A DNA stretch of 64,000 nt from Candidatus Woesearchaeota archaeon (GTDB lineage: Archaea > Nanobdellota > Nanobdellia > Woesearchaeales > UBA119): NCBI GenBank assembly GCA_035363095.1, contig DAOSEK010000004.1, positions 30,893 through 94,892 of the forward strand, in the 5' to 3' direction. Position numbers and translations under genes: made by a program. How positions within the stretch are numbered: position 1 is the stretch's first letter; every line of letters begins with the position of its first letter. Shown piece after piece: positions 39,562-58,943 of the stretch. The notes under the pieces are model-generated. The model searched no databases. It saw only the letters and a list, made by a program, of their open reading frames with translations, and was not told where the DNA came from.

Positions 39562-39585
39562 ATAACATCGGAATTCCTGTTAAGT
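39562..39585 (+). repeat. Cassette-junction core hairpin C0a (attC-like)
   Basis: ataacatcggaattcctgttaagt. Confidence 0.8.
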
Positions 39586-39934
39586 TTGTTTCCAGCTATG
39601 AACGAAGTGGAGTTTGGAAAACCTGCATCCGCAACGTAAAATTTCCATTTCCAATAGATATCAACCGCAGGTAGTGTATGTGTACTAAGCACTGTGGAGT
39701 TCCGTTCAAAAGATTAAAATAATGATTAATATATTTAAAGGTTGAATAAATATTAATAGTATCATGGAAGGGTTATATTTTGTAAGATTGTAAACGAAAA
39801 ATCATCCTGTTGAAAAGTTTATGAAGATGAATTTCAGCATAAAAGAGTATCGTATTAATCGGAACCATGAAGAAGAAAGAATACTCCTTATTATCTTCAA
39901 AACATTTATAAACATAGTTAAATAACAAAAGAAT

Positions 39935-40486
39935 ATGGGTAGGAGCGATTCATGCAACAAAGAGCCTGTAACAAAGTATCTTAAGCAATTCTCAAAAAAC
40001 AAGAGCATCTCAGTCCTAGATTTAGGTGTTGGCGAAGGCGATTTCGGCGCAATAGTCAAAAAAGTATTACCGCAAGCAAGACTAACAGGGGTAGAAGTCT
40101 GGAAGAAATATGAGCACTCACAATGGGCACTCTATGATACGCTTCACATGATGGATATCAGAAAATATCTTCAGAAAAGAAGGAACAAACGAGATGTCAT
40201 CCTCTTAATCGATGTAATTGAACACTTCAATAGACAAGATGGTCTCAAGGTGCTCAAAAGATTACAAAAGATGACAAATCAAAGCCTACTCATCTCAACT
40301 CCTATCACAAATTATCCCCAAGGAAAATATCTGGGAAACCCATACGAAGAGCATAAGCACTTTTGGTCAGATAAAGAGCTCGAGGAACTAGGATTCAAAG
40401 AGATATTCAGAAAACGAGTTTATACCTGGCAGAAGAAACCACGATTTGCTACACTCGGCATATTCGTGTACGAATCCAAAAGGTAA
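39935..40486 (+). CDS. Class I SAM-dependent methyltransferase
   Basis: VLDLGVGEGDFG motif I, LLIDVIEH. Confidence 0.7.
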   Translation: MGRSDSCNKEPVTKYLKQFSKNKSISVLDLGVGEGDFGAIVKKVLPQARLTGVEVWKKYEHSQWALYDTLHMMDIRKYLQKRRNKRDVILLIDVIEHFNRQDGLKVLKRLQKMTNQSLLISTPITNYPQGKYLGNPYEEHKHFWSDKELEELGFKEIFRKRVYTWQKKPRFATLGIFVYESKR

Positions 40487-40490
40487 TACT

Positions 40491-41114
40491 ATGTCAAAGA
40501 CAAGAGTTCTCATTATTAGGCACGGCGAAACCGATAGTAATCTCGCAGGAAAGCTTGACGGGCAAGTTGAGACAACACTCACGGAGAAGGGCATTGCGCA
40601 AGCGGAGCAACTGGGAGAGCTACTGGCGGAGGAGCAGATTGATATCGCGTTCGCATCACCGCTCAATCGTTCGCAAGAGACGGCCAAAATTGTCCTCAAG
40701 CACCATGGAGTTGAGATTGTAACTGAGCAGACCATGATGGAAATTGATTGTGGAGATTGCACTCTACGTTTCCGAGATGATGTCATAAAAGAGTTTCCTG
40801 ATCTCGCAAAAGGGTGGGAAGAACAAGTCGACCCTCCATTCCCAAATGGCGAGAGTCTCAGAGATGTACAAGCACGTGTCATGCCATTCATCAAGAAGAT
40901 ACTGAAAGAGCACGAAGGAAAGACCATTCTCCTCAGCGGCCATGGTGCGCTCAACCGTGCCATCATCGGCGCATTCTTAGAGGTTCCTGCAGGTCTTTGC
41001 TGGAATATCGATCAGAGCAACTGTTGTCTTAACGAGATCTCATTCCGAGGTGACAAATATACTGTTAAGAGAGTGAATCACGACCCTGCCCTTGGCGTCT
41101 TAAAGAAGGAATAG
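40491..41114 (+). CDS. Histidine phosphatase (phosphoglycerate-mutase-like) family protein
   Basis: Start set at MSKTRVLIIRHGETDSN (RHG motif); SGHGALNRA second His motif. Confidence 0.8.
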   Translation: MSKTRVLIIRHGETDSNLAGKLDGQVETTLTEKGIAQAEQLGELLAEEQIDIAFASPLNRSQETAKIVLKHHGVEIVTEQTMMEIDCGDCTLRFRDDVIKEFPDLAKGWEEQVDPPFPNGESLRDVQARVMPFIKKILKEHEGKTILLSGHGALNRAIIGAFLEVPAGLCWNIDQSNCCLNEISFRGDKYTVKRVNHDPALGVLKKE

Positions 41115-42307
41115 ATACTTATTCCCAAACGGTCAAGGAGGAGTCTAAAGACTGCATACCAAGGACCCGCGCAGTTCAGGACGCTTTTGAGTCCAAGAGA
41201 AAGATATGTTCCAAGGGTCTGTTTTCTGCTCTGAAATCTTGCGACTAGTGAATGGATAACAAATACATAGTTAAACAAGAACAAGAGCAGAAGCGTGAAA
41301 AGGAGGGGTTGCCTTATTGCCCAGAAGCCGACTACGAAAAGAACGGGTGGGCCAAGAATCCATTGTGAAAGTATTGCGTAGCGATGAAGCGTTTTCCAGA
41401 GTCCTCCGTTCTTGGAGGCAAGGTATTCTTTGTACAATAATAGTTCTCCAGCAAACCATCTCGCAGATTGTTGAATATTATCCGAGAGAGAATATGGAAC
41501 AGTGCAAGTATCGAAATAGGGTACTGGTTTAATAAGTACATTTGCGAAGGAGAGACGATAACCAAAGGCAAGATCCTCTGTGAGTGAATATGTTGGGAAA
41601 GGATTCTTTTTGGCATACGTTGATTCAATGATGAGTCCGTGACCAACACAATACGCAAGTAAACAAATCTTTCCCGCCGAATAGTTTTTCAAAATAGTAG
41701 GGAGTTCATATGCAAGCGTCCATCGCGTTTGGAAGAGGGCATTTGCTCGGGCCAACAGAGGTTGCCCATCAGCACAGTAACTGCTGAACATCTGATAGAC
41801 AAGAGCCGGCTCAGGATCTCGCATGACATAACGAATCCCATCTACTGAAGGTCGTGAGTCTGCGTCAAAGATTGCAATGTAATGGTTGTTCACATGCTTC
41901 ATTCGATTGATCGCCTCATTGAGCTGTGCCGCTTTTCCATGAGCTCTTGATTGATAAATAGAAATCTTAGGCGAAGATATGGCCTCCTTGATTGCACGAT
42001 ATGTCTTGTTGGCATAACTCGTACCTTCACGGGCTGTTGTGACGAAGAGAACGCGTATGCCTTGCAATGAGGAGATCAGATGCTCAAAATACTTAACTGT
42101 TTCCCCAATAATGGATGCTTCATCATAGACAGGTATAAGAATAGTCAGTCCCATATTTCCCAATCGCGCCATTTTCTTTGTTTGCAAGAAACGAATCGAC
42201 AATTGGATATTGATGATATATTGCATCACACGCACATTCGCATAGAGAAGAATGATAAGTATGAGCACATCAATCATCGAGAGCACCCCTGAATGCGTCA
42301 AGATCAA
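41078..42307 (-). CDS. Family 2 glycosyltransferase with N- and C-terminal TM segments
   Basis: LTILIPVYDEASII, FDADSRP (DxD), QSARW-like (QxxRW) motif. Confidence 0.75.
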   Translation of the reverse strand: MILTHSGVLSMIDVLILIILLYANVRVMQYIINIQLSIRFLQTKKMARLGNMGLTILIPVYDEASIIGETVKYFEHLISSLQGIRVLFVTTAREGTSYANKTYRAIKEAISSPKISIYQSRAHGKAAQLNEAINRMKHVNNHYIAIFDADSRPSVDGIRYVMRDPEPALVYQMFSSYCADGQPLLARANALFQTRWTLAYELPTILKNYSAGKICLLAYCVGHGLIIESTYAKKNPFPTYSLTEDLAFGYRLSFANVLIKPVPYFDTCTVPYSLSDNIQQSARWFAGELLLYKEYLASKNGGLWKTLHRYAILSQWILGPPVLFVVGFWAIRQPLLFTLLLLFLFNYVFVIHSLVARFQSRKQTLGTYLSLGLKSVLNCAGPWYAVFRLLLDRLGISIYSFFKTPRAGS

Positions 42308-42914
42308 GTCTAGGTCCTAGTGAGTTCATTTCTTCCAAAGGTATTAGTGAATACTTCTCTTCTGTACTCAGTGTTGCATCAAGGCAGACAATCTTGATTC
42401 CCTGCATACTATCAAAGAGCGCATAGTCTGCGCGTTTAAGATCGTGAAGGAAGTTTGTATCGCGCCAGAAAGAAGGAAGAGGTGGTTCTTCACCATTCTG
42501 AATTCTAATCCTTTGACGATTAATGGACTCTTCCGGAGATATATTCAGATAAATGAGGGTGTCTGGCAGAAATAATCTCTCTTGTGCAAGGGCTAAAGCA
42601 TATTGAGCCATTGTTGGCGCAAAACCATCTATCCCACTGTATCTTGAGTAGGCATATGCGTAAGAGAGGTGCGTCAGGAATGAACGGTCATAGATTGTTT
42701 GTTTATCATCAACAAACCGCTCGCTCTCTGGAGCAATGAACCAATCATTTATTGAGAGCATGTGCTCTAGATTAAGACCATCACCAGGGAATGCGTTCGG
42801 CGGAAGAACATGGCCCAGCTCATGAACCACCCTATACTTTTGTCTCTCCAACAAATAGAGCAAGGTGCTCTTCCCTGTGGCTGGAAGTCCTTCAATGAAT
42901 ATTCTGGTCATCAT
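42270..42914 (-). CDS. P-loop kinase (deoxynucleoside/nucleotide-kinase-like)
   Basis: Walker A GLPATGKST at the N-terminus; 214 aa. Confidence 0.55.
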   Translation of the reverse strand: MMTRIFIEGLPATGKSTLLYLLERQKYRVVHELGHVLPPNAFPGDGLNLEHMLSINDWFIAPESERFVDDKQTIYDRSFLTHLSYAYAYSRYSGIDGFAPTMAQYALALAQERLFLPDTLIYLNISPEESINRQRIRIQNGEEPPLPSFWRDTNFLHDLKRADYALFDSMQGIKIVCLDATLSTEEKYSLIPLEEMNSLGPRLDLDAFRGALDD

Positions 42915-43083
42915 ACACGCTCCTTTGCTTGAGGATTATAAATATCTCCAAATAGTTTTTTACATGACTATAAGGTCTTATTTGGCATCTCTTTATTGTA
43001 GAAATAATTCTATCTTGAACATCTAATGGAAGTTTACTTAATTGTTTATCTGCAAAATCTGAAAAAGTTACTTCGTAAGTCAT
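42892..43083 (-). pseudogene. Truncated relE copy (first ~43 codons intact, 3-prime end replaced by the island)
   Basis: MTYEVTFSDFADKQLSKLPLDVQDRIISTIKRCQIRPY matches 39016-39276, then diverges at about 42953. Confidence 0.7.
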
Positions 43084-43301
43084 CTTTTCAACCTTGCTTC
43101 AACTTGTGCAAGAGTTTTAACTCGTCCAGCTCTTATATCTTCTTCAGATTTTCTAATATTTTCCAGTGTTTGTTCAGATAATTCCATGGTGTCTTCTAAT
43201 AAATCTCTGATTATGTCCTCATAACTTTCCTTATCGTACATTTTACGAGATTTTAAATCTTCTAACAGATCTTTGCTTACTTGAATAGTTGTAGTTGTCA
43301 T
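43080..43301 (-). CDS. Antitoxin, second copy (73 aa)
   Basis: Same protein as 39273-39494. Confidence 0.7.
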   Translation of the reverse strand: MTTTTIQVSKDLLEDLKSRKMYDKESYEDIIRDLLEDTMELSEQTLENIRKSEEDIRAGRVKTLAQVEARLKR

Positions 43302-43368
43302 AGAAAGTATATAATGTGCTATGGTAAGTAAATATTTCGTTTTTTTAGGGGTTAAAATAAAATTAGAC

Positions 43369-43392
43369 ATAACATCGGAATTCCTGTTAAGT
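43369..43392 (+). repeat. Cassette-junction core C0b
   Basis: ataacatcggaattcctgttaagt. Confidence 0.8.
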
Positions 43393-43500
43393 TTGTTTCC
43401 AGCTATGAACGAAGTGGAGTTCGGAAAACCTGCATCCGCAACGTTATTTTCAAGGGCAGTATTCCGTTCCATAAAACAAAAGATTTAAATAATTATACGT

Positions 43501-43538
43501 AATTACACAGGTTATAAATAATTACACAGGTGATAAAT
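43501..43538 (+). promoter_or_regulatory. Tandem 2 x 19-bp direct repeat (candidate operator/promoter of the PIN TA operon)
   Basis: aattacacaggttataaat / aattacacaggtgataaat, overlapping the annotated GTG start. Confidence 0.4.
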
Positions 43539-43757
43539 ATAGTAAATGTGACATTATCAATTCCAACAGATTTAAAACGTAAAATGGATGATTTTGCAGA
43601 GATAAATTGGAGTGCTGTTGCAAGAGAAGCATTCGGAGAAAAAATAAATGATCTTGAATTTATTAAAAGATTTAAAAGTAAAAGCACTATTACTGATGAA
43701 GATGCATTAAATCTTGGAAGAGAATTAAACGAAAGACTTGCAAAGAGAAGAAACTAA
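43530..43757 (+). CDS. vapB: Ribbon-helix-helix antitoxin (VapB-like)
   Basis: VTLSIPTDLKRKMDDF is RHH-like. The true start may be the GTG at 43548. Confidence 0.6.
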   Translation: MINIVNVTLSIPTDLKRKMDDFAEINWSAVAREAFGEKINDLEFIKRFKSKSTITDEDALNLGRELNERLAKRRN

Positions 43758-43758
43758 A

Positions 43759-44163
43759 ATGGATTTAGTCGTTGATGCAAACATATTCTTTTCAGTTCTT
43801 ATCAAAAGTGGAAAAACAGAAGAATTAATGTTTGATCCCGCACTGCATCTTTTTGCTCCAGAATTTATTTTTGAAGAGTTTATTAAATACAAAAATCATA
43901 TCATAAAAAAGACTGGAAGAACAGAAAATGAGTTTAATAAACTTATAGAAATTCTTAGAAAAAAGATAAAAACAATTTCAAATGAAGAAATAGAAAAATT
44001 CATACCTAAAGCCAGAGAAATATGTCCAGATAAAAATGATGTAGATTATTTTGCTTTGGCATTAAGATTAAATTGTGCTTTATGGAGTAATTATAAAGAA
44101 TTGAAAAATCAAAAGGTTGTTCTAGTTTATGCAACACATGAATTATTAAAAATCTTTGAATGA
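43759..44163 (+). CDS. vapC: PIN-domain toxin (VapC-like)
   Basis: MDLVVDANIFFSVLIK (first acidic PIN residue); start set at ATG 43759. Confidence 0.72.
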   Translation: MDLVVDANIFFSVLIKSGKTEELMFDPALHLFAPEFIFEEFIKYKNHIIKKTGRTENEFNKLIEILRKKIKTISNEEIEKFIPKAREICPDKNDVDYFALALRLNCALWSNYKELKNQKVVLVYATHELLKIFE

Positions 44164-44334
44164 AATTATCCAGAAAAACTGCCCTTTCTCTTTTTAAGCC
44201 CTTGAAAATAACTCTTTGGGATTTTTTCACTTCGTGAAATACTCAAAAATTTATAATTTTTGGTGCACAGAAAATCTATGATTTTCTTGTGAATCGTTGC
44301 ACTATCCCTCGGTCTTTTCTACGAAAAGACGCAA

Positions 44335-44358
44335 CTAACATAAGGATCCTTGTTATGT
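44335..44358 (+). repeat. Cassette-junction core 1
   Basis: ctaacataaggatccttgttatgt. Confidence 0.75.
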
Positions 44359-44386
44359 GGGGAGACCGCAAGTCGACCAACGGGAT

Positions 44387-44405
44387 AATTGAACTAAGAA
44401 AATTT
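44387..44405. repeat. Cassette-bracketing inverted repeat, HD cassette, left arm (19 bp, perfect)
   Basis: aattgaactaagaaaattt, which overlaps the stop codon of the HD gene. Partner at 44818-44836. Confidence 0.85.
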
Positions 44406-44798
44406 ACGTGCATACTCAATCCAATCTTTATGATGAAGAGATAGTTTATCTGCTACTTGTATTATTCTACCATAGATTGTTGTAGGTGTTTGTTTTCTTC
44501 TATGATTAAGAATACAATCAGAGATTTCTTCTTTAATTGATTTAAATTCAGGATATTTCTGTAAAAATTTATCCAAATATTGAAGTCCTATCTCATGATG
44601 CTTATCTTTATCGTCTTTCCTTCCAACATCATGAATCCAACCACCAATATCAAAAATAATTGGATTTAAATCAGTATTCTTAATCATATTATTACAACAA
44701 TCTATTACACAAGCAGAATGAATTTTTATTTTTTCATCATTCCATTCTTGTTCAAAAAATTCTTTTGCCTTTGAATATGCATTACTCATAAAGATCAA
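44394..44798 (-). CDS. HD-domain phosphohydrolase
   Basis: IHDVGR (HD motif), HH..G; 134 aa. Confidence 0.72.
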   Translation of the reverse strand: MIFMSNAYSKAKEFFEQEWNDEKIKIHSACVIDCCNNMIKNTDLNPIIFDIGGWIHDVGRKDDKDKHHEIGLQYLDKFLQKYPEFKSIKEEISDCILNHRRKQTPTTIYGRIIQVADKLSLHHKDWIEYARKFS

Positions 44799-44817
44799 AT
44801 GTGCTCTTAGGTTTATA

Positions 44818-44836
44818 AAATTTTCTTAGTTCAATT
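44818..44836. repeat. HD cassette bracketing IR, right arm
   Basis: aaattttcttagttcaatt, the exact reverse complement of 44387-44405. Confidence 0.85.
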
Positions 44837-44839
44837 GCA

Positions 44840-44862
44840 AATAACATCGAGCCCTGTTAAGT
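44840..44862 (+). repeat. Cassette-junction core 2
   Basis: aataacatcgagccctgttaagt. Confidence 0.75.
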
Positions 44863-44907
44863 GAGGTCGAGGAACAAAGCGACTAAAGCGCAGCGTCCCC
44901 TTAGCGT

Positions 44908-44920
44908 TTAAGTTTTGGCA
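44908..44920. repeat. PRTase cassette bracketing IR, left arm (13 bp)
   Basis: ttaagttttggca; partner tgccaaaacttaa at 45493-45505. Confidence 0.8.
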
Positions 44921-44922
44921 AG

Positions 44923-45450
44923 TTACATTTCATCGATTATTCTAATTGCTTTAAGATTGTATTTTTGAAATAAAATTTGAGTCTGTTTATTTTTATGAGA
45001 ACAAAGGGAAGAGATTCCAACTATTTCTCCACCTAATTCTTCAATTAGTTTTATAGAAGATTTCATCTGAGTTCCTGTATCAATCCATTCATCAACAAGA
45101 AGTATTTTCTCACCTTTTTTGACTGATGATTTATTTATTTCAAAAGATTTTGATGTATTAGTATAATCAACAAAAGATGATTTTTTTAGAACTGTATCAT
45201 TAATTCCTGGAAGCTTTCCTCCTTTTCTGATGCAGATAAAACCTTTATTCTTCTTTTGTGCTAATGCTCCACCAATTACAAAACCTAATGCATCAAGTCC
45301 TGCAATTTTATCAAAATCTGCATCTTTGAAAGGTTCAATTAAATCATTAAGTAAATTTGAAAATACTTCAGGATTCTCAAAAATAGGAGTCACATCATAT
45401 CTTCCTTTTGTTTCTTTGTTGATAAATTGACTATAATATTCGTATTCCAT
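44923..45450 (-). CDS. Phosphoribosyltransferase (adenine/purine PRTase-like)
   Basis: ILLVDEWIDTGTQ PRPP-binding motif. Start set at MEYEYYSQF (ATG 45450); the TTG extension overlaps the IR. Confidence 0.72.
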   Translation of the reverse strand: MEYEYYSQFINKETKGRYDVTPIFENPEVFSNLLNDLIEPFKDADFDKIAGLDALGFVIGGALAQKKNKGFICIRKGGKLPGINDTVLKKSSFVDYTNTSKSFEINKSSVKKGEKILLVDEWIDTGTQMKSSIKLIEELGGEIVGISSLCSHKNKQTQILFQKYNLKAIRIIDEM

Positions 45451-45492
45451 ATTAAAAATAAACAGACTTGACTTTAATATAAATCTTTCGAG

Positions 45493-45505: not shown

Positions 45506-45510
45506 ATGTC

Positions 45511-47741: not shown

Positions 47742-47746
47742 TTGAA

Positions 47747-52886: not shown

Positions 52887-53059
52887 TTTGTTTTACCCCC
52901 TCAAAAATTTTTTCAGTCATTTGGCTGATACTTATTACTAAATCATTGAAATATATAAAGTTTATGTTGATTTTTCCGGAAAGTTTTCGGAAATAGTTTT
53001 CTCGCCCTTAAATAATAAAATTGTCCCCTTCTACTTTTTAGCCCTTGAAAATAATTGCA

Positions 53060-53083
53060 ATTAACATCGGGGCCCTGTTCTAT
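53060..53083 (+). repeat. Cassette-junction core 10
   Basis: attaacatcggggccctgttctat. Confidence 0.75.
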
Positions 53084-53203
53084 TCGTCTGAATACTTGGA
53101 GGACTTGATTTTTAGTGCAACGATGCCGAAGGCAAAAAATCAAAGTAATTTCGGGGCCGTATTAAATCCAGCGAACAAAGTGAGCCATAAAGAATAAGTA
53201 TCA

Positions 53204-53246
53204 AGGGGCAATTATCAGTTTTTTTTTCGTCGTGGGGGGAATTCCG
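53204..53246. repeat. Left terminal inverted repeat of the MBL/radical-SAM cassette
   Basis: aggggcaattatc..cgtcgtggggggaattccg. Partner at 55744-55795 (cggaattccccgcctcgtcg..gaaaattgccccc). Confidence 0.75.
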
Positions 53247-53253
53247 TTTTTTG

Positions 53254-53276
53254 CTTCTTTTTTAAGAAAAAAGAAG
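53254..53276. terminator. T-rich perfect palindrome downstream of the MBL gene
   Basis: cttctttttt-aa-gaaaaaagaag, 10 nt past the stop on the minus strand. Confidence 0.35.
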
Positions 53277-53285
53277 ATTTTCAAA

Positions 53286-54182
53286 TTATAGTTTTTCCCA
53301 GAATAGAGAATTATCTTTCACTTCTACTTTTAATTTTCCTCTTTCATGTAAAGAACTAAGATAAGCCATAGCAACCGTATTCATTAAATAATACTGTTGT
53401 ATTCCTCTCATATCTATTTTGTAATGGTCGCACATATCTTTTAGGACTTGTTGAGTACTTTTTCTTCCATGAAATTCCTCTAAAAGATATTTTTCGACTC
53501 CATCAATTGCTTCAAGATTTGCATCGACTAATTCATTTAAAGACCCTCTTGGTTCAGCATGAGAAGGAACATAAAACTTATATTGAGAATTTCTTAAAAA
53601 TCTCAAAGTTTCTTTAGTCCTATCTATATCAGCATAAAAAGGGATTTTGTGTCTTCTCAGCACATCTTCTGAAAAAAGAGAGTCTGCACAAAATAAAACT
53701 TCATCAACTTCTACACCCACTTGATTAGGAGCATGTCCTGGCAAAGGAACAATTCCTAATTCAACTTCATCAAATTTTAATTTTCGCTCATCTCTTTTTA
53801 TTACATAATCAACATCAGAAGGTTGAGCCATTAAAAATTTATTTTGTAACTCTTTCAAAGGGCTTGCTCCAGAAAATAAATAAAGAGGTTCAAGCGAAGG
53901 AAACTGTATTATTGCAGACTCAACTTCGGGTGCATAAATTTTTGCTCTTGTTTTTTCTTTTATATATCTGTTGCCCCCACAATGATCTGCATGTGAATGG
54001 GTATTAATTATCGCTTTTGGAAATAAGCCGTTTTCTTCTAAAAGTTTTAATACTTTTTTTCCAGTATCATCATCTAAACCAGAGTCTATTAAAATGACTG
54101 ATTTTTCTCCGTCTTTTACAACTCCTATATTTGCGGGATTGGGTATGTAATAAACCCCCTCACTTATTTTTTTCATTTCCAT
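53286..54182 (-). CDS. MBL-fold metallo-hydrolase
   Basis: HSHADHCGG motif; 298 aa. Confidence 0.8.
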   Translation of the reverse strand: MEMKKISEGVYYIPNPANIGVVKDGEKSVILIDSGLDDDTGKKVLKLLEENGLFPKAIINTHSHADHCGGNRYIKEKTRAKIYAPEVESAIIQFPSLEPLYLFSGASPLKELQNKFLMAQPSDVDYVIKRDERKLKFDEVELGIVPLPGHAPNQVGVEVDEVLFCADSLFSEDVLRRHKIPFYADIDRTKETLRFLRNSQYKFYVPSHAEPRGSLNELVDANLEAIDGVEKYLLEEFHGRKSTQQVLKDMCDHYKIDMRGIQQYYLMNTVAMAYLSSLHERGKLKVEVKDNSLFWEKL

Positions 54183-54197
54183 TCTCCATTAACCTCT

Positions 54198-55625
54198 TTA
54201 TACAAGTACATAGCAGTGAGACATTTTTAGTTGTTGTCTCCCTTCTATCTTTTGTAATCTGAATGAACCTGCTTGAGTTGTTGGTTTATCTGTCAAATCA
54301 AGAGTTTCTATATAAACTTTAATTTTGTCTTTTAATAAATATTTTTCAGTTCCACAACCGGGGGCATGATAAGTTTTACTTTGCCATTGTGCTTTACAAA
54401 CACAACCTCCTCCACAAGAAGGCAGATAGGCATGTTCTCTGCATTGTTCAATATTAACAGGATTTCTTTCTAGAACATCTCCGTAAACAGAAGTTTTTTC
54501 TAAATTCCCATCAAAATCAATTCTTCCAACCATGTGTTCTTTTAATCCAACAAGTTCCCAGCATTTGTAAACCTCTCCAAATGCATCAATTATGTAAGAA
54601 CCGTCAGCAACACTACTACAAGGAAGTGGCTGAATCTGTGGCCTAATATCTAAAGGAAACCCTCTTTCGTGAGCTTTTCTCCAAAGTTCAGGCATGACTC
54701 TAAATAATTTTAAATCCGATAAGGTATGGCTTTCAAAATCAGCACATGCGTCAGTAAAAGAAGTTATATAACAAAAATCAGGATATACATGAGTTAAATC
54801 TCTAGACTTAAGTTCATCTAATAATCTTTCCATAGTAGGATATGTTTCGTCCGTAAGACTTATTCTAATATGTGTCTCAACATCTGTTCCCCGTGTCATG
54901 CCAAGAACTCTTGCTATATCCTCAAAAGAACCCCTTCTGTCTTCTTTGTAGAATCTATATTTGTTATGCATTTCTGGATCACCATCAACAGGAATTTGCA
55001 ATCTAGTTCCGTATCCAGAAAGCCATCTAACCATATTCTCGTCTATTAAACTGCCATTACTCAAGACATGCAAACCAAAAGCAATATTATTTTTTCTTGC
55101 CCATTCTGAAACCTCTTCAGTTAATTCTCTGCCCATTTCTCTTGCTCCAGGCAAGAAAGGTTCTCCGCCATAAAGAACAAGTTCTAATTTTCGGGCGCCT
55201 CTTTCAGTAGTTGTTTTTTTAATAAATTTTTTAGTTGCACCTAATAATTCAGGACTCATCGATTTAAATCCATGAATTTGTTGACCTTTTTCTCCCCTGC
55301 CTTGATAACAATAAGGACATTCAAAATTACAATCATAAGTTAACAAAGCATTAAATTCAACATTTTCTCTTCCATCTTTCCATCTTCTGTGCATTTGGGC
55401 ATATTCTTCTAATTCATCTAATCGGGGAGGAATTAATATTCCCTGTTCTTTCAAATCTTCAACTAAACCGTCTAATGAAGAATTATCAAGAGGTGCTAAA
55501 TCTTTGCTTTTTAGTAATTGGGCTAATTCTGGATTAACTCTGCTTATAGAACCTCTTAAGGTATTGTAAACTAATTCAGTCCCATTATTCTCTCGCACAA
55601 ATACATTAAATCTGGAATTTTTCAT
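54198..55625 (-). CDS. Radical SAM / SPASM-domain maturase-like enzyme
   Basis: YDCNFECPYCYQG (CX3CX2C), GGEPFL, C-terminal Cys cluster (YKCWE..., CREHAYLPSCGGGCVC), N-terminal FNVFVRENNGTELVYNTLRGS typical of anSME/peptide-maturase relatives. Confidence 0.82.
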   Translation of the reverse strand: MKNSRFNVFVRENNGTELVYNTLRGSISRVNPELAQLLKSKDLAPLDNSSLDGLVEDLKEQGILIPPRLDELEEYAQMHRRWKDGRENVEFNALLTYDCNFECPYCYQGRGEKGQQIHGFKSMSPELLGATKKFIKKTTTERGARKLELVLYGGEPFLPGAREMGRELTEEVSEWARKNNIAFGLHVLSNGSLIDENMVRWLSGYGTRLQIPVDGDPEMHNKYRFYKEDRRGSFEDIARVLGMTRGTDVETHIRISLTDETYPTMERLLDELKSRDLTHVYPDFCYITSFTDACADFESHTLSDLKLFRVMPELWRKAHERGFPLDIRPQIQPLPCSSVADGSYIIDAFGEVYKCWELVGLKEHMVGRIDFDGNLEKTSVYGDVLERNPVNIEQCREHAYLPSCGGGCVCKAQWQSKTYHAPGCGTEKYLLKDKIKVYIETLDLTDKPTTQAGSFRLQKIEGRQQLKMSHCYVLV

Positions 55626-55743
55626 TTTTATTCTACTCCAAGCTTGTTTTGTTATAAAAAGGTATTGTTCTAAATTTTATAAACCTCTTGCTTCTAAAGT
55701 CGTAACACTTTTGAGGAAGCTGGGAGTATCTGTCCGTAGGACT

Positions 55744-55795
55744 CGGAATTCCCCGCCTCGTCGTTTTTGTTTTTAGTTTTTAGAAAATTGCCCCC
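55744..55795. repeat. Right terminal inverted repeat of the MBL/radical-SAM cassette
   Basis: cggaattccccgcctcgtcg-tttttgtttttagttttta-gaaaattgccccc. Confidence 0.75.
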
Positions 55796-55820
55796 TTCGT
55801 TAGCCCCTGAAATTATTGAA

Positions 55821-55845
55821 TAGAACATCGGAATTCCTGTTAGTT
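55821..55845 (+). repeat. Cassette-junction core 11
   Basis: tagaacatcggaattcctgttagtt. Confidence 0.8.
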
Positions 55846-56115
55846 TCGTTTTCGGTTACGAAGTCCCGAAAACCTGCGTCCGCAGAGTCGGGAGAAAGGG
55901 CGTTCCATCAAATGAGCGAATGCGATATCCTCAAAAATTGTAAATTTTTGGGACATCAGAAATCTTTGATTTCTTAGTGCATCAATAACAAGAATTTAGG
56001 GGCAGTTTTCCGTTACATTTATATATACAAAGGAATATACATATCTTGTAATGGTTATAGTAAAGGGGATAGTCCTGCCTTAGGGCAAGACAGTAAATCC
56101 CCTATTTTTTTAAAA

Positions 56116-56778
56116 ATGAAAATTGCTATATTTGTGGATTCTGAAAATTTTCGTGCAAGTATAAATTGCATTAATGAAGAGCGTAAACAAGATAGGTATA
56201 TTGATTGGCATAAAATTAATTTGTTTGTTCTAGATTATTTGTCAAATAATCCTCAATTTAAAAATGAAAAATTGAGTCATATTAGAACATATGTTTATAC
56301 TGGAGAATATACTGAACATTTGATCAAAAGAATTGAAGATGCAATAAAAAAGGACACAAAAAATGAAAATTTGAAAAGAATTCTTGAATCAGCAAAGCAT
56401 AATCGGCAGGCACAGATTGATTTTTATAAAAAAGCAAACTCGTACTATTTTTTTGAAATTAGAAAAAAACCCCTTCAATTTACATCTTCTAAAGGTATAT
56501 TTCAGAAAGGTGTAGACGTACAAATCGCAGTAGATTTAGTATCTTTTGCTCATCAAAATTTTTATGATGTTGCGGTAATATTTTCAGGTGATATAGATTT
56601 ACTTGAATCTCTTAAAACGGTAAAAAATTTAGGTAAGCAAGTAATAATATTTTCCCATTACAAAAATATTGCTGTTGAAATGAAAAGAGAAGCAGATATG
56701 TATATTAATTTTCAGAATCTTGCTGATAAACAATTGGATGGAATTGCACATATGTTCCAAAAGAAACAAAATCACTAG
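56116..56778 (+). CDS. NYN (LabA-like) domain putative RNase
   Basis: MKIAIFVDSENF, GVDVQIAVDLV, VIFSGDIDL. Confidence 0.72.
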   Translation: MKIAIFVDSENFRASINCINEERKQDRYIDWHKINLFVLDYLSNNPQFKNEKLSHIRTYVYTGEYTEHLIKRIEDAIKKDTKNENLKRILESAKHNRQAQIDFYKKANSYYFFEIRKKPLQFTSSKGIFQKGVDVQIAVDLVSFAHQNFYDVAVIFSGDIDLLESLKTVKNLGKQVIIFSHYKNIAVEMKREADMYINFQNLADKQLDGIAHMFQKKQNH

Positions 56779-56819
56779 GAAAACTGCCCCTTTCCGTTTT
56801 TAGCCCTTTCTCCCGATTG

Positions 56820-56957
56820 AAACTAACATCGGAATTTAACGAAGTTTATTTTTCAGAGCGGAGGAATTTTGAGGCACCCCACAAAATTCCGACCTCGAAA
56901 AATAAATTTGGGTGGAGAAACCTGCAAGGTTTCGGAACCGTTAAATTCCTGTTCTAT
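56820..56957 (+). repeat. Cassette-junction core 12, long form (138 bp, branched)
   Basis: aactaacatcggaatttaacg...[two internal hairpins]...cggaaccgttaaattcctgttctat. Confidence 0.75.
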
Positions 56958-57228
56958 TCGTCCGAATACTTGGAGGACTTGATTTTTAGTGCAACGATGC
57001 CGAAGGCAAAAAATCAAAGTAATTTCAGGGGCGTATTCAATCAAGGGAACAAAGTGAGCTATAAAGAATAAGTATCAAGGGGCAATTTTCAGTTCGTCGT
57101 TCGTGGGGGGAATTCCGTTTTTTGCTTCTTTTTTCTTAAAACAGACGATTTTTAGAGTGGGCTTTTATTTTGGTTCTTTTTCTAAAAAAAGAGATAAAAA
57201 GTATATTTAATTCTTCGTTTATTATTTC

Positions 57229-57999
57229 TTAGAAGTTAGTCACATACTTTTTGTCTTTTTGCACAATATATCCGTCATACTCAATAAATTCTTTTATTAT
57301 TTCATTTTTGCAGTTTAGAGAGATTTCTTTGCCGGGAGGGTATTTAGCAATCTCAAACAAAGCATCTTTTCTTTCAGAACTATCTTCTGAACTAATAAGA
57401 AATAATATTTCATGTATGAATTCTGAAGTTAAATCGTATTCTGAAAAGTTTTCGATTATAGTTTTTAATATTTTAAAATCATCTATTGAATAGATTTTCT
57501 CAAGCGTCTCGATGTCTTTAAAGAGATATTTTGTATGGTTATTTTTCATAATTCTAAACATATTGGGGTTTAGCAATAAATTATATTTTTCAAATAGTTT
57601 CAGGTAAATAAATAGACACATTGAAGAATTGTTTGATTTCGCAATACGCTTAATCTCTTTCATATCCGATGTTGGGAAACCTATCCATTCAATAAATTTG
57701 TCTTTGTTGAATTTCACTGTCTTAACATCAAAAAAAGATTTTAGAAAATTAATTTCTTTTTCTTGTGATGGAGCGAGGTATATTAATGGTTCGGATTCCC
57801 TTATCAATTCTAAGTTTGAAGTGATTACTTCAAAATCAGGGTACATCAACATTTTTATTTTTGAATCTTTTAAACTTGAAGGGTCGTATATTTTTTCATA
57901 ATCAAGTTCTCCCATTTCTCCAAAAGGATTTATAATAACCAAACCCTTATTTTCACATATATTTCCAATTCCAAGAAGATTGTTCTTGTTTCCGACCAT
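57229..57999 (-). CDS. Hypothetical protein (256 aa)
   Basis: Clean ORF filling one cassette. No motif recognised. Confidence 0.5.
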   Translation of the reverse strand: MVGNKNNLLGIGNICENKGLVIINPFGEMGELDYEKIYDPSSLKDSKIKMLMYPDFEVITSNLELIRESEPLIYLAPSQEKEINFLKSFFDVKTVKFNKDKFIEWIGFPTSDMKEIKRIAKSNNSSMCLFIYLKLFEKYNLLLNPNMFRIMKNNHTKYLFKDIETLEKIYSIDDFKILKTIIENFSEYDLTSEFIHEILFLISSEDSSERKDALFEIAKYPPGKEISLNCKNEIIKEFIEYDGYIVQKDKKYVTNF

Positions 58000-58212
58000 T
58001 TTTATGAAAGTATTTTGTTAATATTAATAAATCTTTTCATATATTTTAAATGTCGAGCGAAGCGAGTGTAGATGTCCTTTAGGACTAGGAACTCCCCCCT
58101 TAAATTAAAGAACTCCCCCTTCTACTAATAAATATCGAACGAAGTGAGTGAATATGTGCGAAGCACCGAACTCCCTCCCGTTTTTCGTAATTTAGAACTT
58201 AAACACAATTGA

Positions 58213-58300
58213 ACTTAACATCGGAATTTAACGAAGTCGCACGAAGTGCGATTTGGGAAAAATGCGAGCCGAGAGATTTTCCTTCAAATCCGTGTTAAAC
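58213..58300 (+). repeat. Cassette-junction core 13, long form (88 bp, right arm degenerate)
   Basis: acttaacatcggaatttaacgaagtcgcacgaagtgcgatttggg...tccgtgttaaac. Confidence 0.65.
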
Positions 58301-58358
58301 GTCCCGAACGAAGTGAGAGCGCAGCGTGGTCGTAGTGGAGCAAAGCGGAACGGAGAAG

Positions 58359-58373
58359 TTCTAATTTTGTCGC
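58359..58373. repeat. HIT cassette bracketing IR, left arm (15 bp, perfect)
   Basis: ttctaattttgtcgc; partner gcgacaaaattagaa at 58814-58828. Confidence 0.85.
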
Positions 58374-58374
58374 G

Positions 58375-58779
58375 TTAAGAAAGTAGTTTTTGTTGTATTT
58401 TTTTTACTTCATCAAGGCTTTTTGATTTTCCATGAAACCATAAATCCAATCCATCATTTTCAAATCTTGGAACGACATGAAAATGTAAATGAAAAACACT
58501 TTGTTGAGCATCTTTTCCTGATGCGTTTAAAATATTAACTCCTGTTGCTCCAAGTTTTTCTTTACATAAAATTGCCATTTTTTTACAAACTTGATTAATT
58601 CTATTAAGAATTTCATCAGGAGTTACAAATATATTCTCAAAGTGTTTTTTTGGAATAAGTAATAAATGTCCGTTAGATGTTGGATTGATATCTAAAAAAG
58701 CCTTGACTAAATCATCTTCAAATAATTGAAAACAAGGTATTTCATTATTTGCGATTTTACAAAAACTACATTCTGCCAT
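58375..58779 (-). CDS. HIT-family (histidine triad) nucleotide hydrolase/transferase
   Basis: HLHFHVVPR histidine triad; CxxC at the N-terminus. Confidence 0.85.
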   Translation of the reverse strand: MAECSFCKIANNEIPCFQLFEDDLVKAFLDINPTSNGHLLLIPKKHFENIFVTPDEILNRINQVCKKMAILCKEKLGATGVNILNASGKDAQQSVFHLHFHVVPRFENDGLDLWFHGKSKSLDEVKKIQQKLLS

Positions 58780-58813
58780 AATAATATAAGATTTTAATTA
58801 ATATATAAATTTA

Positions 58814-58828
58814 GCGACAAAATTAGAA
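58814..58828. repeat. HIT cassette bracketing IR, right arm
   Basis: gcgacaaaattagaa. Confidence 0.85.
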
Positions 58829-58832
58829 TTAC

Positions 58833-58943
58833 GTTTAACATCGGAATTTAACGAAGTCGTTTAAGTTCGGAGCGAAGCGGAGAACATTAAACGATTTGGG
58901 AGAGGGGCGAGCCGAGCCCCGAACCGTTAAATTCCTGTTAGTT
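58833..58943 (+). repeat. Cassette-junction core 14, long form (111 bp, branched)
   Basis: gtttaacatcggaatttaacg-aagtcgtttaa..ttaaacgatttggg-agaggggcgagccgagcccc-gaaccgttaaattcctgttagtt. Confidence 0.78.

What the first reader, a model, noticed from the sequence alone, without database searches (positions are those of the whole stretch)
39562..58943. Integron-like array of at least 15 gene cassettes separated by one conserved, same-orientation hairpin core, with no recombinase visible
Sixteen copies of a short core (consensus [RYYY]AACATCG-stem-loop-stem-CTGTTA[RRY]) all lie on the + strand. They start at 39562, 43369, 44335, 44840, 45511, 46542, 47286, 47747, 48404, 49121, 50126, 53060, 55821, 56820, 58213 and 58833. 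Each interval between cores contains exactly one gene or one tightly overlapping operon. In order these are: RelE TA (twice, one copy flanking a GC-rich island), PIN TA, HD, PRTase, PLD nuclease, RelE TA, ASCH, 2H phosphoesterase, an interrupted Cys-rich protein gene, methyltransferase, a precursor/unknown/radical-SAM/GNAT operon, a radical-SAM-SPASM plus MBL pair, NYN, an unknown gene, HIT, and RHH/PLD-SNF2/N6-MTase. I found no core in the housekeeping half (1-39 kb). One-gene modules, many TA pairs and small accessory enzymes are what integron cassette arrays look like. Integrons are a bacterial paradigm and, to my knowledge, have only been reported sporadically in archaeal metagenome bins. 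This array also deviates from the classical model, as the separate findings describe. No tyrosine or serine recombinase, HUH enzyme or transposase ORF is present in the window, so the mobilising enzyme is unknown.
Basis: partly seen in the sequence, partly recalled or inferred. Interest (0 to 1): 0.9.

Follow-up and report, generated by a model that had tools for sequence, protein, structure and literature searches.

The report
Xer-type integron cassette array in Woesearchaeota
This stretch of a tiny archaeon's chromosome is a real integron-like store of swappable gene cassettes, but relatives show it is run by a simpler Xer-type recombinase and uses differently built recombination sites than the classical bacterial integron.

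Summary
All 16 cores sit at the stated coordinates on the + strand, and nothing similar occurs in the housekeeping half of the window. The array runs past the finding: the same contig has four more sites and breaks at a variable junction near window-equivalent 76.7 kb.

The cores are minimal forms of a hairpin site (TAACA, TC bulge, L stem, TGTTA). This site family occurs in many DPANN archaeal genomes, and its L stem shows strong compensatory change.

The same cassettes sit in different contexts in other metagenomes, and sequence identity breaks exactly at ...TAAC|. Each site therefore travels with the gene on its right, and the classical top strand is the window's minus strand.

The window has no recombinase. 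In 15 related loci, a ~270-aa tyrosine recombinase lies at the right-hand end of such arrays, about 100 nt (85-330 nt) beyond a last site that was found by eye in 14 of them. It is closest to archaeal XerA and lacks the IntI-specific insertion.

Two features depart from classical integrons:
- Each cargo is framed by cassette-specific nested inverted repeats.
- The same frame recurs around unrelated cargo.

Verdict: an integron-like system and a new variant of a known kind. The mechanism is inferred, not shown.

The parts
39009..39565 (-). Leftmost cassette body: ParE toxin (39016-39276) and antitoxin (39273-39545). It has its own inverted-repeat frame (39009-39025 / 39540-39556) and R arm, but no hairpin site on its left. 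This is the distal end of the array.
   Evidence: Pfam PF05016; sequence; inverted-repeat match.
39555..39585 (+). Site 1, short form: R arm ATTAGACATAAC, then ATC-GGAATTCC-TGTTA. Crossover inferred between 39565 and 39566.
39566..43372 (.). Cassette 1: GC-rich island (methyltransferase, histidine phosphatase, GT2, kinase-like; 44% GC) plus a partial second ParE/antitoxin copy. The island is flanked by a 497-bp direct repeat (39141-39637 / 42949-43444) and is absent from another sample (L218).
43362..43392 (+). Site 2, short form, identical to site 1.
43373..44338 (+). Cassette 2: RHH antitoxin and PIN toxin. No matching outer inverted repeat. Its left repeat, TTATTTTCAAGGGC, instead matches the right repeat at 53041-53054.
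44328..44358 (+). Site 3, short form (CTAACATAAGGATCCTTGTTATG).
44339..44844 (-). Cassette 3: HD-domain protein. Outer inverted repeat 44387-44405 / 44818-44836 (19 nt, perfect).
44834..44862 (+). Site 4, short form.
44845..45516 (-). Cassette 4: phosphoribosyltransferase. Outer inverted repeat 44905-44920 / 45493-45508.
45506..45537 (+). Site 5, short form.
45517..46545 (+). Cassette 5: PLD-family nuclease. Outer inverted repeat 45584-45598 / 46523-46537.
46535..46565 (+). Site 6, short form.
46546..47289 (+). Cassette 6: DUF2683 antitoxin-like protein plus ParE/YafQ-like toxin. Outer inverted repeat 46597-46612 / 47267-47282; inner 46651-46665 / 47239-47253.
47279..47309 (+). Site 7, short form.
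47290..47751 (-). Cassette 7: ASCH-domain protein. Outer inverted repeat 47324-47340 / 47727-47743.
47741..47771 (+). Site 8, short form.
47752..48408 (+). Cassette 8: 2H / LigT-like phosphoesterase. Outer inverted repeat 47830-47843 / 48385-48398.
48398..48431 (+). Site 9, short form (GGGCTAAGCCC hairpin).
48409..49125 (-). Cassette 9: DUF3795 Cys-rich protein, broken here (89 aa) but intact (184 aa) in L218. Outer inverted repeat 48465-48480 / 49102-49117.
49115..49145 (+). Site 10, short form.
49126..50131 (-). Cassette 10: SAM methyltransferase. Outer inverted repeat 49182-49196 / 50110-50124.
50121..50150 (+). Site 11, short and degenerate.
50132..53064 (-). Cassette 11: four-gene operon (65-aa possible precursor, 295 aa, radical SAM, 155 aa). 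Outer inverted repeat 50216-50229 / 53041-53054; inner 50327-50343 / 53011-53027.
53054..53083 (+). Site 12, short form. The homologous frame in L131 carries a long hairpin between the same flanks.
53065..55825 (-). Cassette 12: radical SAM (475 aa) plus metallo-beta-lactamase-fold protein. Three nested inverted repeats. Its left frame (53074-53280) and right frame (55744-55827) are 89-92% identical to those around a type I restriction-modification operon in L131 and around other cargo in L043.
55815..55845 (+). Site 13, short form.
55826..56826 (+). Cassette 13: NYN-domain nuclease. Outer inverted repeat 55886-55901 / 56803-56818.
56816..56958 (+). Site 14, long form: TAACA-TC-GGAATTTAACG ... 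CGTTAAATTCC-TGTTC. Predicted DNA hairpin.
56827..58218 (-). Cassette 14: 256-aa protein with no family match. No outer inverted repeat found.
58208..58300 (+). Site 15, long form.
58219..58838 (-). Cassette 15: HIT-family hydrolase. Outer inverted repeat 58357-58373 / 58814-58830.
58828..58943 (+). Site 16, long form (103 nt from AAC to GTT, 11-bp L stem).
58839..64000 (+). Cassette 16, which runs on to window-equivalent 69630: a defence operon of PLD-SNF2 helicase, Eco57I/MmeI-type N6-methyltransferase, a 199-aa protein, a HATPase protein and a PD-(D/E)xK nuclease. It is followed off-window by GmrSD, Mrr and ThsB-TIR/HaeIII restriction-modification cassettes.

Best explanation
The region is the distal-to-middle part of a chromosomal, integron-like gene-cassette platform of a Candidatus Woesearchaeota (DPANN) archaeon.

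Anatomy of one cassette, read on the window + strand:
1. C-ATC, then a hairpin site: L stem, variable interior, T-GTTA.
2. A 50-110-nt 'module 2' of small hairpins with C-GAA-G loops.
3. A left inverted repeat.
4. The cargo gene or genes, with their own promoter.
5. A right inverted repeat.
6. The conserved arm ATTGMANNTAA.

How it works. Recombination between two sites, at or next to AA|C, excises a cassette as a circle or inserts one.
- Shown: cassette units move between contexts with exactly these boundaries, and the site is constrained as a structure.
- Inferred from conserved synteny in relatives: the enzyme is a ~270-aa XerA-like tyrosine recombinase that lacks the IntI-specific insertion. 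Its gene lies at the right-hand end of such arrays, facing away from them, about 100 nt (85-330 nt) beyond a last site made of the same arm and a genome-specific hairpin. That last site acts as the attI-like insertion point.
- Inferred by analogy with IntI/attC and with XerCD/CTX-phage integration: the substrate is the folded single strand (the window + strand), with one strand exchange resolved by replication.
- Hypothesis only: in single-stranded DNA the cassette-specific inverted repeats loop out the cargo. This would bring the two sites that flank a cassette side by side and favour clean single-cassette excision whatever the cargo length.

The 13 short cores in the window are interior-deleted sites. 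This distal half of the array looks largely fixed, whereas the integrase-proximal part with long sites varies between samples.
For: Breakpoints:
- The GmrSD cassette in the window lineage (L121), L123 and L125 is 99.7-99.95% identical from TT(T/G)AAC|ATCGG... to ...AATTGCAATTAAC(A)|, with unrelated sequence outside.
- The DUF5680-radical SAM cassette behaves the same way.
- Three samples with an identical recombinase (P0234) and an identical 3' housekeeping flank have different cassettes on the 5' side, and identity ends at TTAAC|.
- The window contig itself ends 8 nt after an AAC, where it reads differently from L121.
- Short Logan contigs begin exactly at (T)AAC.

Localisation: 18 of 18 sites lie on one strand, with none in the 39 kb of housekeeping DNA. 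Only scattered single hits occur in about 0.6 Mb of unrelated control loci.

Structure:
- 92 of 134 sites share the geometry AAC+3 nt / 1 nt+GTT, with 11-12-bp L stems in 88 of the 134.
- 536 of 550 L-box cells are Watson-Crick, with many double changes.
- The covariation score is 0.339 against 0.134 in shuffles, with 0 of 500 shuffles reaching it.

Strand bias: CGAAG against CTTCG is 421 to 32 in 232 junctions. GCGAAGC against GCTTCGC is 82 to 3. In window junctions it is 22 to 0.

Recombinase:
- PF00589, 157 bits.
- Best NCBIfam match is XerA_Arch at 212 bits (cut-off 220); integron integrase scores 182 bits (cut-off 265), split into two stretches.
- It aligns contiguously with P. abyssi XerA (4a8e) but with a gap of about 45 aa against VchIntIA (2a3v).
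- Homologues occur in 11 of the loci hit by the DNA pattern, all on the same side and strand.
- Four further family members chosen independently of the sites show the same layout.

Inverted repeats:
- In 87 independent cassettes, 64% have a repeat of at least 11 nt, against 3.7% of mismatched pairs (Mann-Whitney p = 4e-21). The right arm usually ends 9 nt before the AAC.
- 13 of 17 cassettes in the window lineage have one.
Against: - No recombinase was found on the 112-kb contig that holds the window, so the link to the XerA-like enzyme rests on other genomes.
- No biochemical or read-level evidence (circular junctions) was available.
- The wobble-pair test for which strand folds was uninformative: 58 against 58.
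- Preference for the + strand therefore rests only on the C-GAA-G bias and on my recollection that d(GCGAAGC) is an unusually stable DNA hairpin.
- The short cores can form only 2-4 bp of L stem and may be inactive.
- Cassette order from the PIN cassette to the methyltransferase cassette is identical in four samples, so activity in this part of the array is not demonstrated.
- The clamp role of the inverted repeats is untested.
Confidence: 0.8

Rival explanations
1. Xer/dif hitch-hiking, as in integrative elements that exploit Xer (IMEX). On this view the recombinase is simply the chromosome's housekeeping XerA, the integrase-proximal site is the dif site, and the cassettes are elements that integrate in tandem at dif as CTX, TLC and RS1 do in Vibrio. 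There would be no dedicated platform.
For: - The enzyme scores just under the XerA equivalog cut-off: 212 against 220.
- It is closest to solved archaeal XerA structures.
- It always sits beside housekeeping genes.
- It looks vertically inherited, with 37-68% identity across lineages.
- CTX-phage integration by XerCD also uses a folded single-strand hairpin (my own knowledge).
Against: - The integrase-proximal site is a conserved arm plus a genome-specific hairpin of variable length. It is not the 11-6-11 inverted repeat described for archaeal dif (PMC8371274).
- Cassettes have no replication or mobility genes of their own and share a standard frame.
- I could not count tyrosine recombinases per genome, so a second, true XerA is not excluded.
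- This reading overlaps with the best explanation rather than excluding it.
Confidence: 0.25
2. An ordinary integron remnant: a cluster of canonical attC sites that lacks its integrase (CALIN). The sites would be served by a classical IntI, with its extra domain, encoded elsewhere or in other community members.
For: - The inverted AAC/GTT cores, hairpin sites and cassette content (toxin-antitoxin pairs, defence genes, small enzymes) match integrons.
- Clusters of attC sites without IntI were reported in Woese- and Pacearchaeales (PMC9668308).
Against: - The recombinase consistently next to these arrays lacks the IntI insertion.
- The sites have a 3-nt/1-nt spacer, a perfectly paired 11-bp L stem without extrahelical bases, and an extra conserved arm.
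- The canonical-type archaeal attCs tested by Ghaly et al. have 5-nt spacers on both sides.
- That study found only 2-5 attCs per such genome, which suggests that the standard model misses most of these sites.
Confidence: 0.07
3. A generic intergenic repeat, such as a REP/BIME-like element, a terminator or a small non-autonomous transposon copy (MITE). On this view the repeat spreads on its own or regulates transcription, and the genes do not move.
For: - The repeats lie between genes and are hairpin-rich.
- The frames contain T-rich stretches.
- Assemblies break at them.
Against: - The repeats are confined to one block and one strand.
- Gene and site move together as a unit, with breakpoints at AAC.
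- No HUH or other transposase was found in the window.
- No Rfam family matched.
- The strand bias is independent of gene orientation.
Confidence: 0.02

Closest known systems
Sedentary chromosomal integrons of bacteria (for example the Vibrio superintegron; IntI with attI and attC)
   Same: - The recombinase gene sits at one end, facing away from a one-directional array.
- Sites are hairpins with inverted AAC/GTT cores, whose structure rather than sequence is conserved.
- Cassette boundaries lie at AA|C (G|TT on the other strand).
- Sites within a genome resemble each other.
- Cargo is rich in toxin-antitoxin pairs and anti-phage defence genes.
   Different: - The recombinase lacks the IntI-specific insertion and is closest to XerA.
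- The spacer is 3 nt / 1 nt instead of about 5 / 5.
- The L stem is fully paired, with no extrahelical bases.
- An extra conserved arm, ATTGMANN, precedes the core.
- A second hairpin module follows the site.
- Cargo is framed by nested cassette-specific inverted repeats.
- Cargo lies in either orientation. At least one cassette shows its own TATA-like promoter.
- Some cassettes are more than 10 kb long.
Archaeal integrons and clusters of attC sites reported by Ghaly et al. 2022 (PMC9668308)
   Same: - Archaeal chromosomal cassette arrays, including in Nanoarchaeota (Woese- and Pacearchaeales) and Aenigmatarchaeota.
- Most lack a detectable IntI.
- Similar cargo classes.
   Different: - Those were found with bacterial attC models and have canonical attC sequences.
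- Their six integrases carry the IntI domain.
- Their longest array on one contig had 12 sites.
- Here the site family is different, the associated enzyme is XerA-like, and this contig alone has 20 sites over 37 kb.
XerCD-dependent integrative elements (IMEX), notably single-strand integration of CTX phage at dif
   Same: A Xer-type tyrosine recombinase without accessory domains acts on a folded single-strand hairpin that mimics its duplex site. Integration occurs in tandem next to a fixed chromosomal site.
   Different: IMEX are self-contained phages or islands that integrate at a true 28-bp dif site. Here there are dozens of small non-autonomous cassettes with a standard frame, and a proximal site that does not look like dif.
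pdif modules of Acinetobacter plasmids
   Same: Gene modules bounded by Xer-type sites that appear in different contexts.
   Different: pdif sites are duplex 11-6-11 sites in alternating orientation. Here the sites are co-oriented variable hairpins arranged in one array beside the recombinase gene.

Membership tests
Integron (classical definition) | Integron integrase: a tyrosine recombinase with the IntI-specific additional domain near patch III | tested here: not met
   No recombinase is in the window. The recombinase next to homologous arrays scores 182 bits on TIGR02249 (cut-off 265), in two stretches. It lacks about 45 residues relative to VchIntIA 2a3v.
Integron (classical definition) | attC-type sites: inverted R boxes with conserved AAC ... 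GTT | tested here: met
   The TAACA ... TGTTA core pairs (AAC/GTT) are standard in 49-50 of 50 distinct sites. All 16 window cores have it.
Integron (classical definition) | Site conserved as a folded structure (paired L boxes) rather than as a sequence | tested here: met
   L-box pairs are 97% Watson-Crick, with compensatory changes at 9 of 11 positions. Covariation exceeds all 500 shuffles and all slid registers.
Integron (classical definition) | Canonical attC detail: about 5-nt unpaired central spacers on both arms and extrahelical bases in the L box | tested here: not met
   The dominant geometry is 3 nt (ATC, whose A pairs) against 1 nt (T). The L stem is perfectly paired for 11-12 bp in 88 of 134 sites. 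Compare the canonical archaeal attCs.
Integron (classical definition) | Cassette boundary (crossover) inside the R box at AA|C / G|TT, with the site travelling with one neighbouring gene | tested here: met
   Identity between contexts starts and stops at TAAC, to within the shared bases. The site travels with the gene on its right in window orientation.
Integron (classical definition) | attI insertion point next to the integrase gene, where cassette content varies | tested here: met
   Met in relatives only. The last site lies 85-330 nt upstream of the start codon in 14 of 15 loci. Cassettes at that point differ between samples with an identical integrase. This cannot be tested on the window's own contig.
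Integron (classical definition) | Sites detected by the standard attC covariance model (IntegronFinder/HattCI) | not testable with these tools
   The model is not available here. Rfam gave no match.
Integron (classical definition) | Recombination of the folded bottom strand by one strand exchange, followed by replication | not testable with these tools
   Only indirect evidence: the C-GAA-G strand bias. The wobble test was uninformative.
CALIN (cluster of attC sites lacking an integrase) | At least 2 attC sites less than 4 kb apart, with no intI nearby on the replicon or contig | tested here: inconclusive
   Operationally true for this contig: 20 sites and no integrase. However, the sites are not canonical attC, and the contig ends inside the array.
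Xer/dif system with integrated elements (IMEX) | XerA-type recombinase | tested here: inconclusive
   NF040815 scores 212 bits, just below the cut-off of 220. The best structural relatives by sequence are the XerA entries 4a8e and 5hxy.
Xer/dif system with integrated elements (IMEX) | [quoted passage not shown] | tested here: not met
   Proximal sites are one conserved arm plus hairpins of variable length and sequence. The dif definition is taken from PMC8371274.
REP/BIME or IS200/IS605-type single-strand elements | Associated HUH (RAYT/TnpA) enzyme and dispersed copies | tested here: not met
   No such domain was found in the window ORFs. Copies are clustered and co-oriented.

The most novel reading that the evidence does not exclude
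DPANN archaea carry their own lineage of integron. A XerA-like recombinase without the IntI domain handles a distinct class of folded sites. Cassettes are built on a standard reusable frame: site, hairpin module, nested inverted-repeat clamps and T-rich insulators. Unrelated cargo, from 0.1 kb to more than 10 kb, sits inside that frame. This would be either the ancestral Xer-like state of integrons or an independent invention. The frame-plus-cargo design would point to how cassettes are made.
Probability: 0.5. Interest if true: 0.9.

Novelty: new variant of a known kind. Interest (0 to 1): 0.8.

Why it matters
- Integron integrases are thought to descend from Xer recombinases, and how gene cassettes are generated is still unknown. 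A widespread natural system in which a Xer-type enzyme without the IntI insertion appears to run an integron would make both questions testable. It also keeps cargo inside a recurring frame of nested inverted repeats.
- Standard integron finders, which need IntI and canonical attC sites, would then miss most cassette arrays in DPANN archaea.
- For organisms with genomes of about 1 Mb, a block of at least 37 kb of exchangeable defence and toxin-antitoxin genes is a large share of the accessory genome. One cargo protein, GmrSD, is 60-75% identical to bacterial homologues. The platform is therefore a plausible entry point for cross-domain gene transfer.

Tried and rejected
- **First regex.** It found nothing because my minimum gap was too large.
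- **Rfam and tRNA scans.** Both were empty.
- **Metagenome scan.** I tried to reach the integrase of the window's own lineage by extending contig Ga0208462_1000345, using its edge methyltransferase as query. The scan returned only relatives (at most 96% identity), not that contig. Those 80 loci served as a negative control instead.
- **Long-contig integrase.** I guessed that a multi-sample integrase, P0234, might belong to the window organism. It did not, but it gave an independent case of strain variation.
- **Automatic search for the closing GTT with relaxed stems.** It mis-assigned the short sites, so I set their ends by eye.
- **PWM hits at window-equivalent 75594 and at L121:73.** Both are false positives: the sequences read AAGATCGG and AAAATCGG.
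- **G-T against A-C mismatch count to decide the folding strand.** Uninformative.
- **Pairing of the arm outside TAACA/TGTTA.** Only about 40-50% of cells pair, so I dropped the idea of a 10-bp R stem.
- **Viral contigs.** Seven pattern matches, none with the arm, so these are chance hits.
- **Ideas considered and rejected.**
  - RNA processing stems or circular RNAs: the one promoter I could read lies inside the repeat, and the strand bias ignores gene orientation.
  - MITE insertion: the genes move together with the sites.
  - Assembly artefact: the same structures appear in ENA, JGI, NCBI and Logan assemblies.

Full report
**1. Observation**

Their common form is [ATTGMANN]TAACA-TC-(short palindrome)-TGTTA. 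A 21-nt weight matrix over the left arm and core recovers the 18 sites of this lineage. It gives no hit on the minus strand and none in window 1-39 kb.

The left half of the window is ordinary archaeal housekeeping DNA. It encodes topoisomerase IA, RtcB, GatD/GatE, an aRF1-like protein, RPA, Sua5 and triosephosphate isomerase.

No ORF tested in the window has a recombinase or transposase domain. Rfam and tRNA scans are empty.

**2. The window is part of a longer array**

The window lies on a 111,934-bp ENA contig (ERZ1756056 NODE_123). A protein on this contig carries the NCBI name Candidatus Woesearchaeota archaeon.

To the right of the window the array continues:
- The 10.8-kb PLD-SNF2 / methyltransferase / HATPase / PD-(D/E)xK defence operon is a single cassette.
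- It is followed by GmrSD, Mrr and ThsB-TIR / HaeIII restriction-modification cassettes.
- Real sites lie at window-equivalent 69629, 71741, 72986 and 76685.

That makes 20 sites over 37 kb on this contig. A second assembly of the same array (L121) carries it on for at least 4 kb more.

**3. What the site is**

Sites 14-16 and the off-window sites are long forms. Their layout is TAACA, a TC bulge, an 11-bp stem (GGAATTTAACG / CGTTAAATTCC), a variable interior, then TGTTA. They are predicted to fold as 80-140-nt DNA hairpins.

Most are DPANN genomes assembled from metagenomes (Woese-, Pace-, Nano- and Aenigmatarchaeota), often with near-identical site sequences.

Across 134 sites with a recognisable closing half:
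- 92 share the geometry AAC+3 nt ... 1 nt+GTT.
- The AAC-to-GTT length ranges from 22 to 277 nt, with a median of 108.

On 50 distinct sites the L-box pairs are almost always Watson-Crick, while the sequence changes on both sides. Examples of the 5' arm (L'') of these stems are GGAATTTAACG, GCGATTAAGAG, GGGCTTAAGGG, AGGATTATGAG and GGCATTAACAG. The covariation score is 0.339 against 0.134 in shuffles, with 0 of 500 shuffles reaching it and all slid registers far lower.

The site is therefore selected as a hairpin, as attC sites are. Pairing outside TAACA/TGTTA is weak (about 40-50% of cells). The conserved ATTGMANN arm is thus a sequence signal rather than a stem.

The short cores are interior-deleted sites. 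The window's site 12 and a long site in L131 lie between the same flanking sequences.

**4. Where cassettes begin and end**

The identical GmrSD protein occurs in several contexts. I put L121 (window lineage), L123 and L125 in the window's orientation and compared them:
- Identity of 99.7-99.95% begins at TT(T/G)AAC|ATCGG... and ends at ...AATTGCAATTAAC(A)|, with unrelated sequence on both sides.
- A DUF5680-radical SAM cassette shows the same two breakpoints.
- Between GmrSD and that cassette, L121 has the Mrr and TIR/restriction-modification cassettes, whereas L125 has a different 227-aa cassette.
- The window contig ends 8 nt after an AAC. There it reads TGACGCAT, as L125 does, where L121 reads ATCGGAATTT.

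The unit that moves is therefore: C-ATC-hairpin-TGTTA, module 2, cargo, ATTGMANNTAA. Each site belongs with the gene on its right. In classical terms, the window's minus strand is the top strand and its + strand is the bottom (folding) strand. Most cargo genes (11 of 17) lie on the minus strand, which is the classical orientation.

**5. The recombinase**

In L123 the same GmrSD cassette lies next to a 266-aa tyrosine recombinase, which is followed by housekeeping genes.
- It matches PF00589 at 157 bits.
- Its best NCBIfam model is archaeal XerA at 212 bits (cut-off 220). The integron-integrase model reaches only 182 bits (cut-off 265), in two stretches.
- Against solved structures it aligns contiguously with P. 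abyssi XerA. Against VchIntIA it aligns in two pieces and lacks about 45 residues, the IntI-specific insertion.
- The HxxR...H...Y active-site residues are present in the aligned C-terminal half.

Homologues (37-68% identical) occur in 11 of the 8-kb loci retrieved by the DNA pattern. All lie on the right of the sites, on the same strand, with the start codon facing the array.

They show the same layout: accessory cassettes on the 5' side and housekeeping genes on the 3' side.

In 14 of 15 loci, a last site lies 85-330 nt upstream of the start codon. It consists of the ATTGNNNYTAAC arm followed by a genome-specific hairpin. Short-read contigs L130 and L132 begin exactly at its (T)AAC.

Samples with an identical recombinase (P0234) and an identical 3' flank carry different cassettes on the 5' side, and identity ends at TTAAC|. 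That is the behaviour of an attI site.

No such gene lies on the window's contig, which ends inside the array. I could not retrieve the rest of the longer sister contig.

**6. Features not seen in classical integrons**

(a) After each site comes a 50-110-nt module of small hairpins.
- Recurrent motifs are AGTGCAACG (42 of 100 modules) and GAGCGCAGCG.
- The strand bias for C-GAA-G loops is extreme: CGAAG against CTTCG is 421 to 32, GCGAAGC against GCTTCGC is 82 to 3, and in window junctions it is 22 to 0.
- From my own knowledge, d(GCGAAGC) is an unusually stable DNA mini-hairpin. If that is right, it points to the + strand acting as folded single-stranded DNA.
- The wobble-pair test could not confirm the strand.

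(b) Each cargo is bracketed by cassette-specific inverted repeats.
- 13 of 17 cassettes in the window lineage have an outer repeat scoring at least 12.
- In 87 independent cassettes from other genomes, 64% have a repeat of at least 11 nt, against 3.7% of mismatched pairs (p = 4e-21).
- The right arm usually ends exactly 9 nt before the AAC.
- The stem includes the conserved AAGT on the left and AATT on the right.

(c) The repeats are nested and belong to a reusable frame. The window's radical SAM/MBL cassette, a type I restriction-modification cassette (L131) and a third cassette (L043) compare as follows:
- Their left frames are 89% identical over 209 nt.
- Their right frames are 92% identical over 88 nt.
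- All three carry three nested repeat pairs and T-rich stretches at both edges.
- Their cargo is unrelated.

Seven such pairs occur among 106 cassettes. Near-empty frames of about 100 nt lie beside the proximal site in L123 and L134.

For the antitoxin gene at 39273-39545, a TATA-like element lies between the start codon and the right repeat. The repeat is therefore outside that mRNA, which argues for a role at the DNA level (inference).

**7. Mechanism: shown and inferred**

Shown by comparison:
- Cassettes are discrete units that recombine at or next to AA|C.
- The sites are constrained as hairpins.
- Arrays are polar, and in relatives they end at a XerA-like recombinase gene with a variable first position.

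Inferred:
- This recombinase catalyses site-by-site excision and site-by-proximal-site insertion.
- It does so on the folded + strand, by one strand exchange completed by replication, as IntI does on attC and as XerCD does on the CTX-phage hairpin.

Hypothesis: in single-stranded DNA the nested repeats loop out the cargo. The two sites flanking a cassette then lie side by side, separated only by module 2. This would favour precise single-cassette excision whatever the cargo length, and it would rebuild the same junction in the excised circle.

The distal part of the window array has short sites and the same order in four samples, so it looks fixed. The proximal part, with long sites, differs between samples.

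**8. Comparison with what is known**

Integrons and clusters of attC sites in Archaea were reported in 2022 (PMC9668308). That study covered 75 metagenome-assembled genomes, six IntIs that all carry the IntI domain, at most 12 sites per contig, and 2-5 sites with no IntI in Woese- and Pacearchaeales.

The attCs tested there are of the canonical bacterial type, with 5-nt spacers. They are unlike this family.

Six full-text searches found no description of cassette arrays associated with a XerA-like enzyme in DPANN. The library does not cover subscription journals, so prior description cannot be excluded.

The system works like an integron. It fails two defining features of the classical family, the IntI domain and the canonical attC fine structure. 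I therefore file it as a new variant, not a member.

**9. Rivals**

- The main alternative is that the enzyme is simply the housekeeping XerA and the proximal site is dif, an IMEX-like reading. The proximal sites are not 11-6-11 palindromes. I could not count recombinases per genome, however. This reading overlaps with the main one.
- A canonical IntI acting in trans is unlikely, given the conserved synteny and the different site.
- Generic repeats, MITEs, RNA elements and assembly artefacts are contradicted by localisation, by co-movement of gene and site, by strand bias independent of gene orientation, and by recurrence across independent assemblies.

Noticed in passing
window 39638-42948, with direct repeats 39141-39637 and 42949-43444: A four-gene island with 44% GC (the array is about 30%) encodes a methyltransferase, a histidine phosphatase, a GT2 glycosyltransferase and a kinase-like P-loop protein. 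It is bracketed by a 497-bp direct repeat (97.8% identical) made of part of the ParE/antitoxin pair, site 1 and module 2. The island and one repeat copy are absent from another sample (L218). How it was inserted is unclear.
   Followed up: partly
window 48775-49044 versus L218 6817-7371: The DUF3795 Cys-rich gene is truncated in the window (89 aa) but intact (184 aa) in L218, over a region of the same length. This points to a point or frameshift lesion rather than an insertion.
   Followed up: partly
L001 20520-22271 (window-equivalent 69857-71608): The GmrSD cassette protein is 60-75% identical to homologues named from Geobacter, Bacillus, Mycoplasmatota, Vibrio and other bacteria. This fits recent cross-domain transfer of this cassette.
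   Followed up: no
module 2 downstream of sites, for example window 53100-53145 and 47772-47830: Conserved unpaired-looking motifs AGTGCAACG(T/A) and GAGAGCGCAGCGTGG recur in the hairpin module. TGCAAC resembles the site's own arm (TTGCAAYTAAC), so this may be a second binding site for the recombinase or a partner protein.
   Followed up: partly
L123 9614-9720 and 11981-12086; L134 about 95-175: Near-empty cassettes (frame only, about 100 nt between the repeat arms TTTTTTTGTC / GACAAAAAAA or TTTTTCTC / GAGAAAAA) lie directly beside the integrase-proximal site. In L123 the same unit flanks the GmrSD cassette on both sides.
   Followed up: partly
window 43441-43454 versus 53041-53054 and 50216-50229: The left repeat after site 2 (TTATTTTCAAGGGC) has no partner at the end of its own cassette. 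It matches the right repeat of cassette 11 perfectly. This may be a trace of past rearrangement or frame exchange within the array.
   Followed up: no
loci L006, L031, L043, L061 and many bins labelled Methanosarcinales: Typical sites occur on contigs binned as Thermoplasmatales, Patescibacteria, Saccharibacteria, Promethearchaeota and Methanosarcinales. This reflects either mis-binning of DPANN contigs or a wider host range.
   Followed up: no
window 21201-22281 and 28948-33195: A run of genes has products that start with a short basic stretch followed by a hydrophobic helix (for example MKNKKGAMELSINTIVILFLA). They look like archaeal type IV pilin-like proteins. None has a Pfam match.
   Followed up: no
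whole window: GC skew is strongly negative from 1 to 25 kb, near zero across the distal array and positive beyond 56 kb. This could reflect gene-strand bias or a replication landmark near the array.
   Followed up: no
L225/L226 about 6770-6790 and 9876-9896: In these two samples the sequence left of the integrase-proximal TTAAC is ...CTCCGAAGTGG rather than the usual ATTGMANN arm. This suggests an insertion through a non-standard partner site.
   Followed up: no
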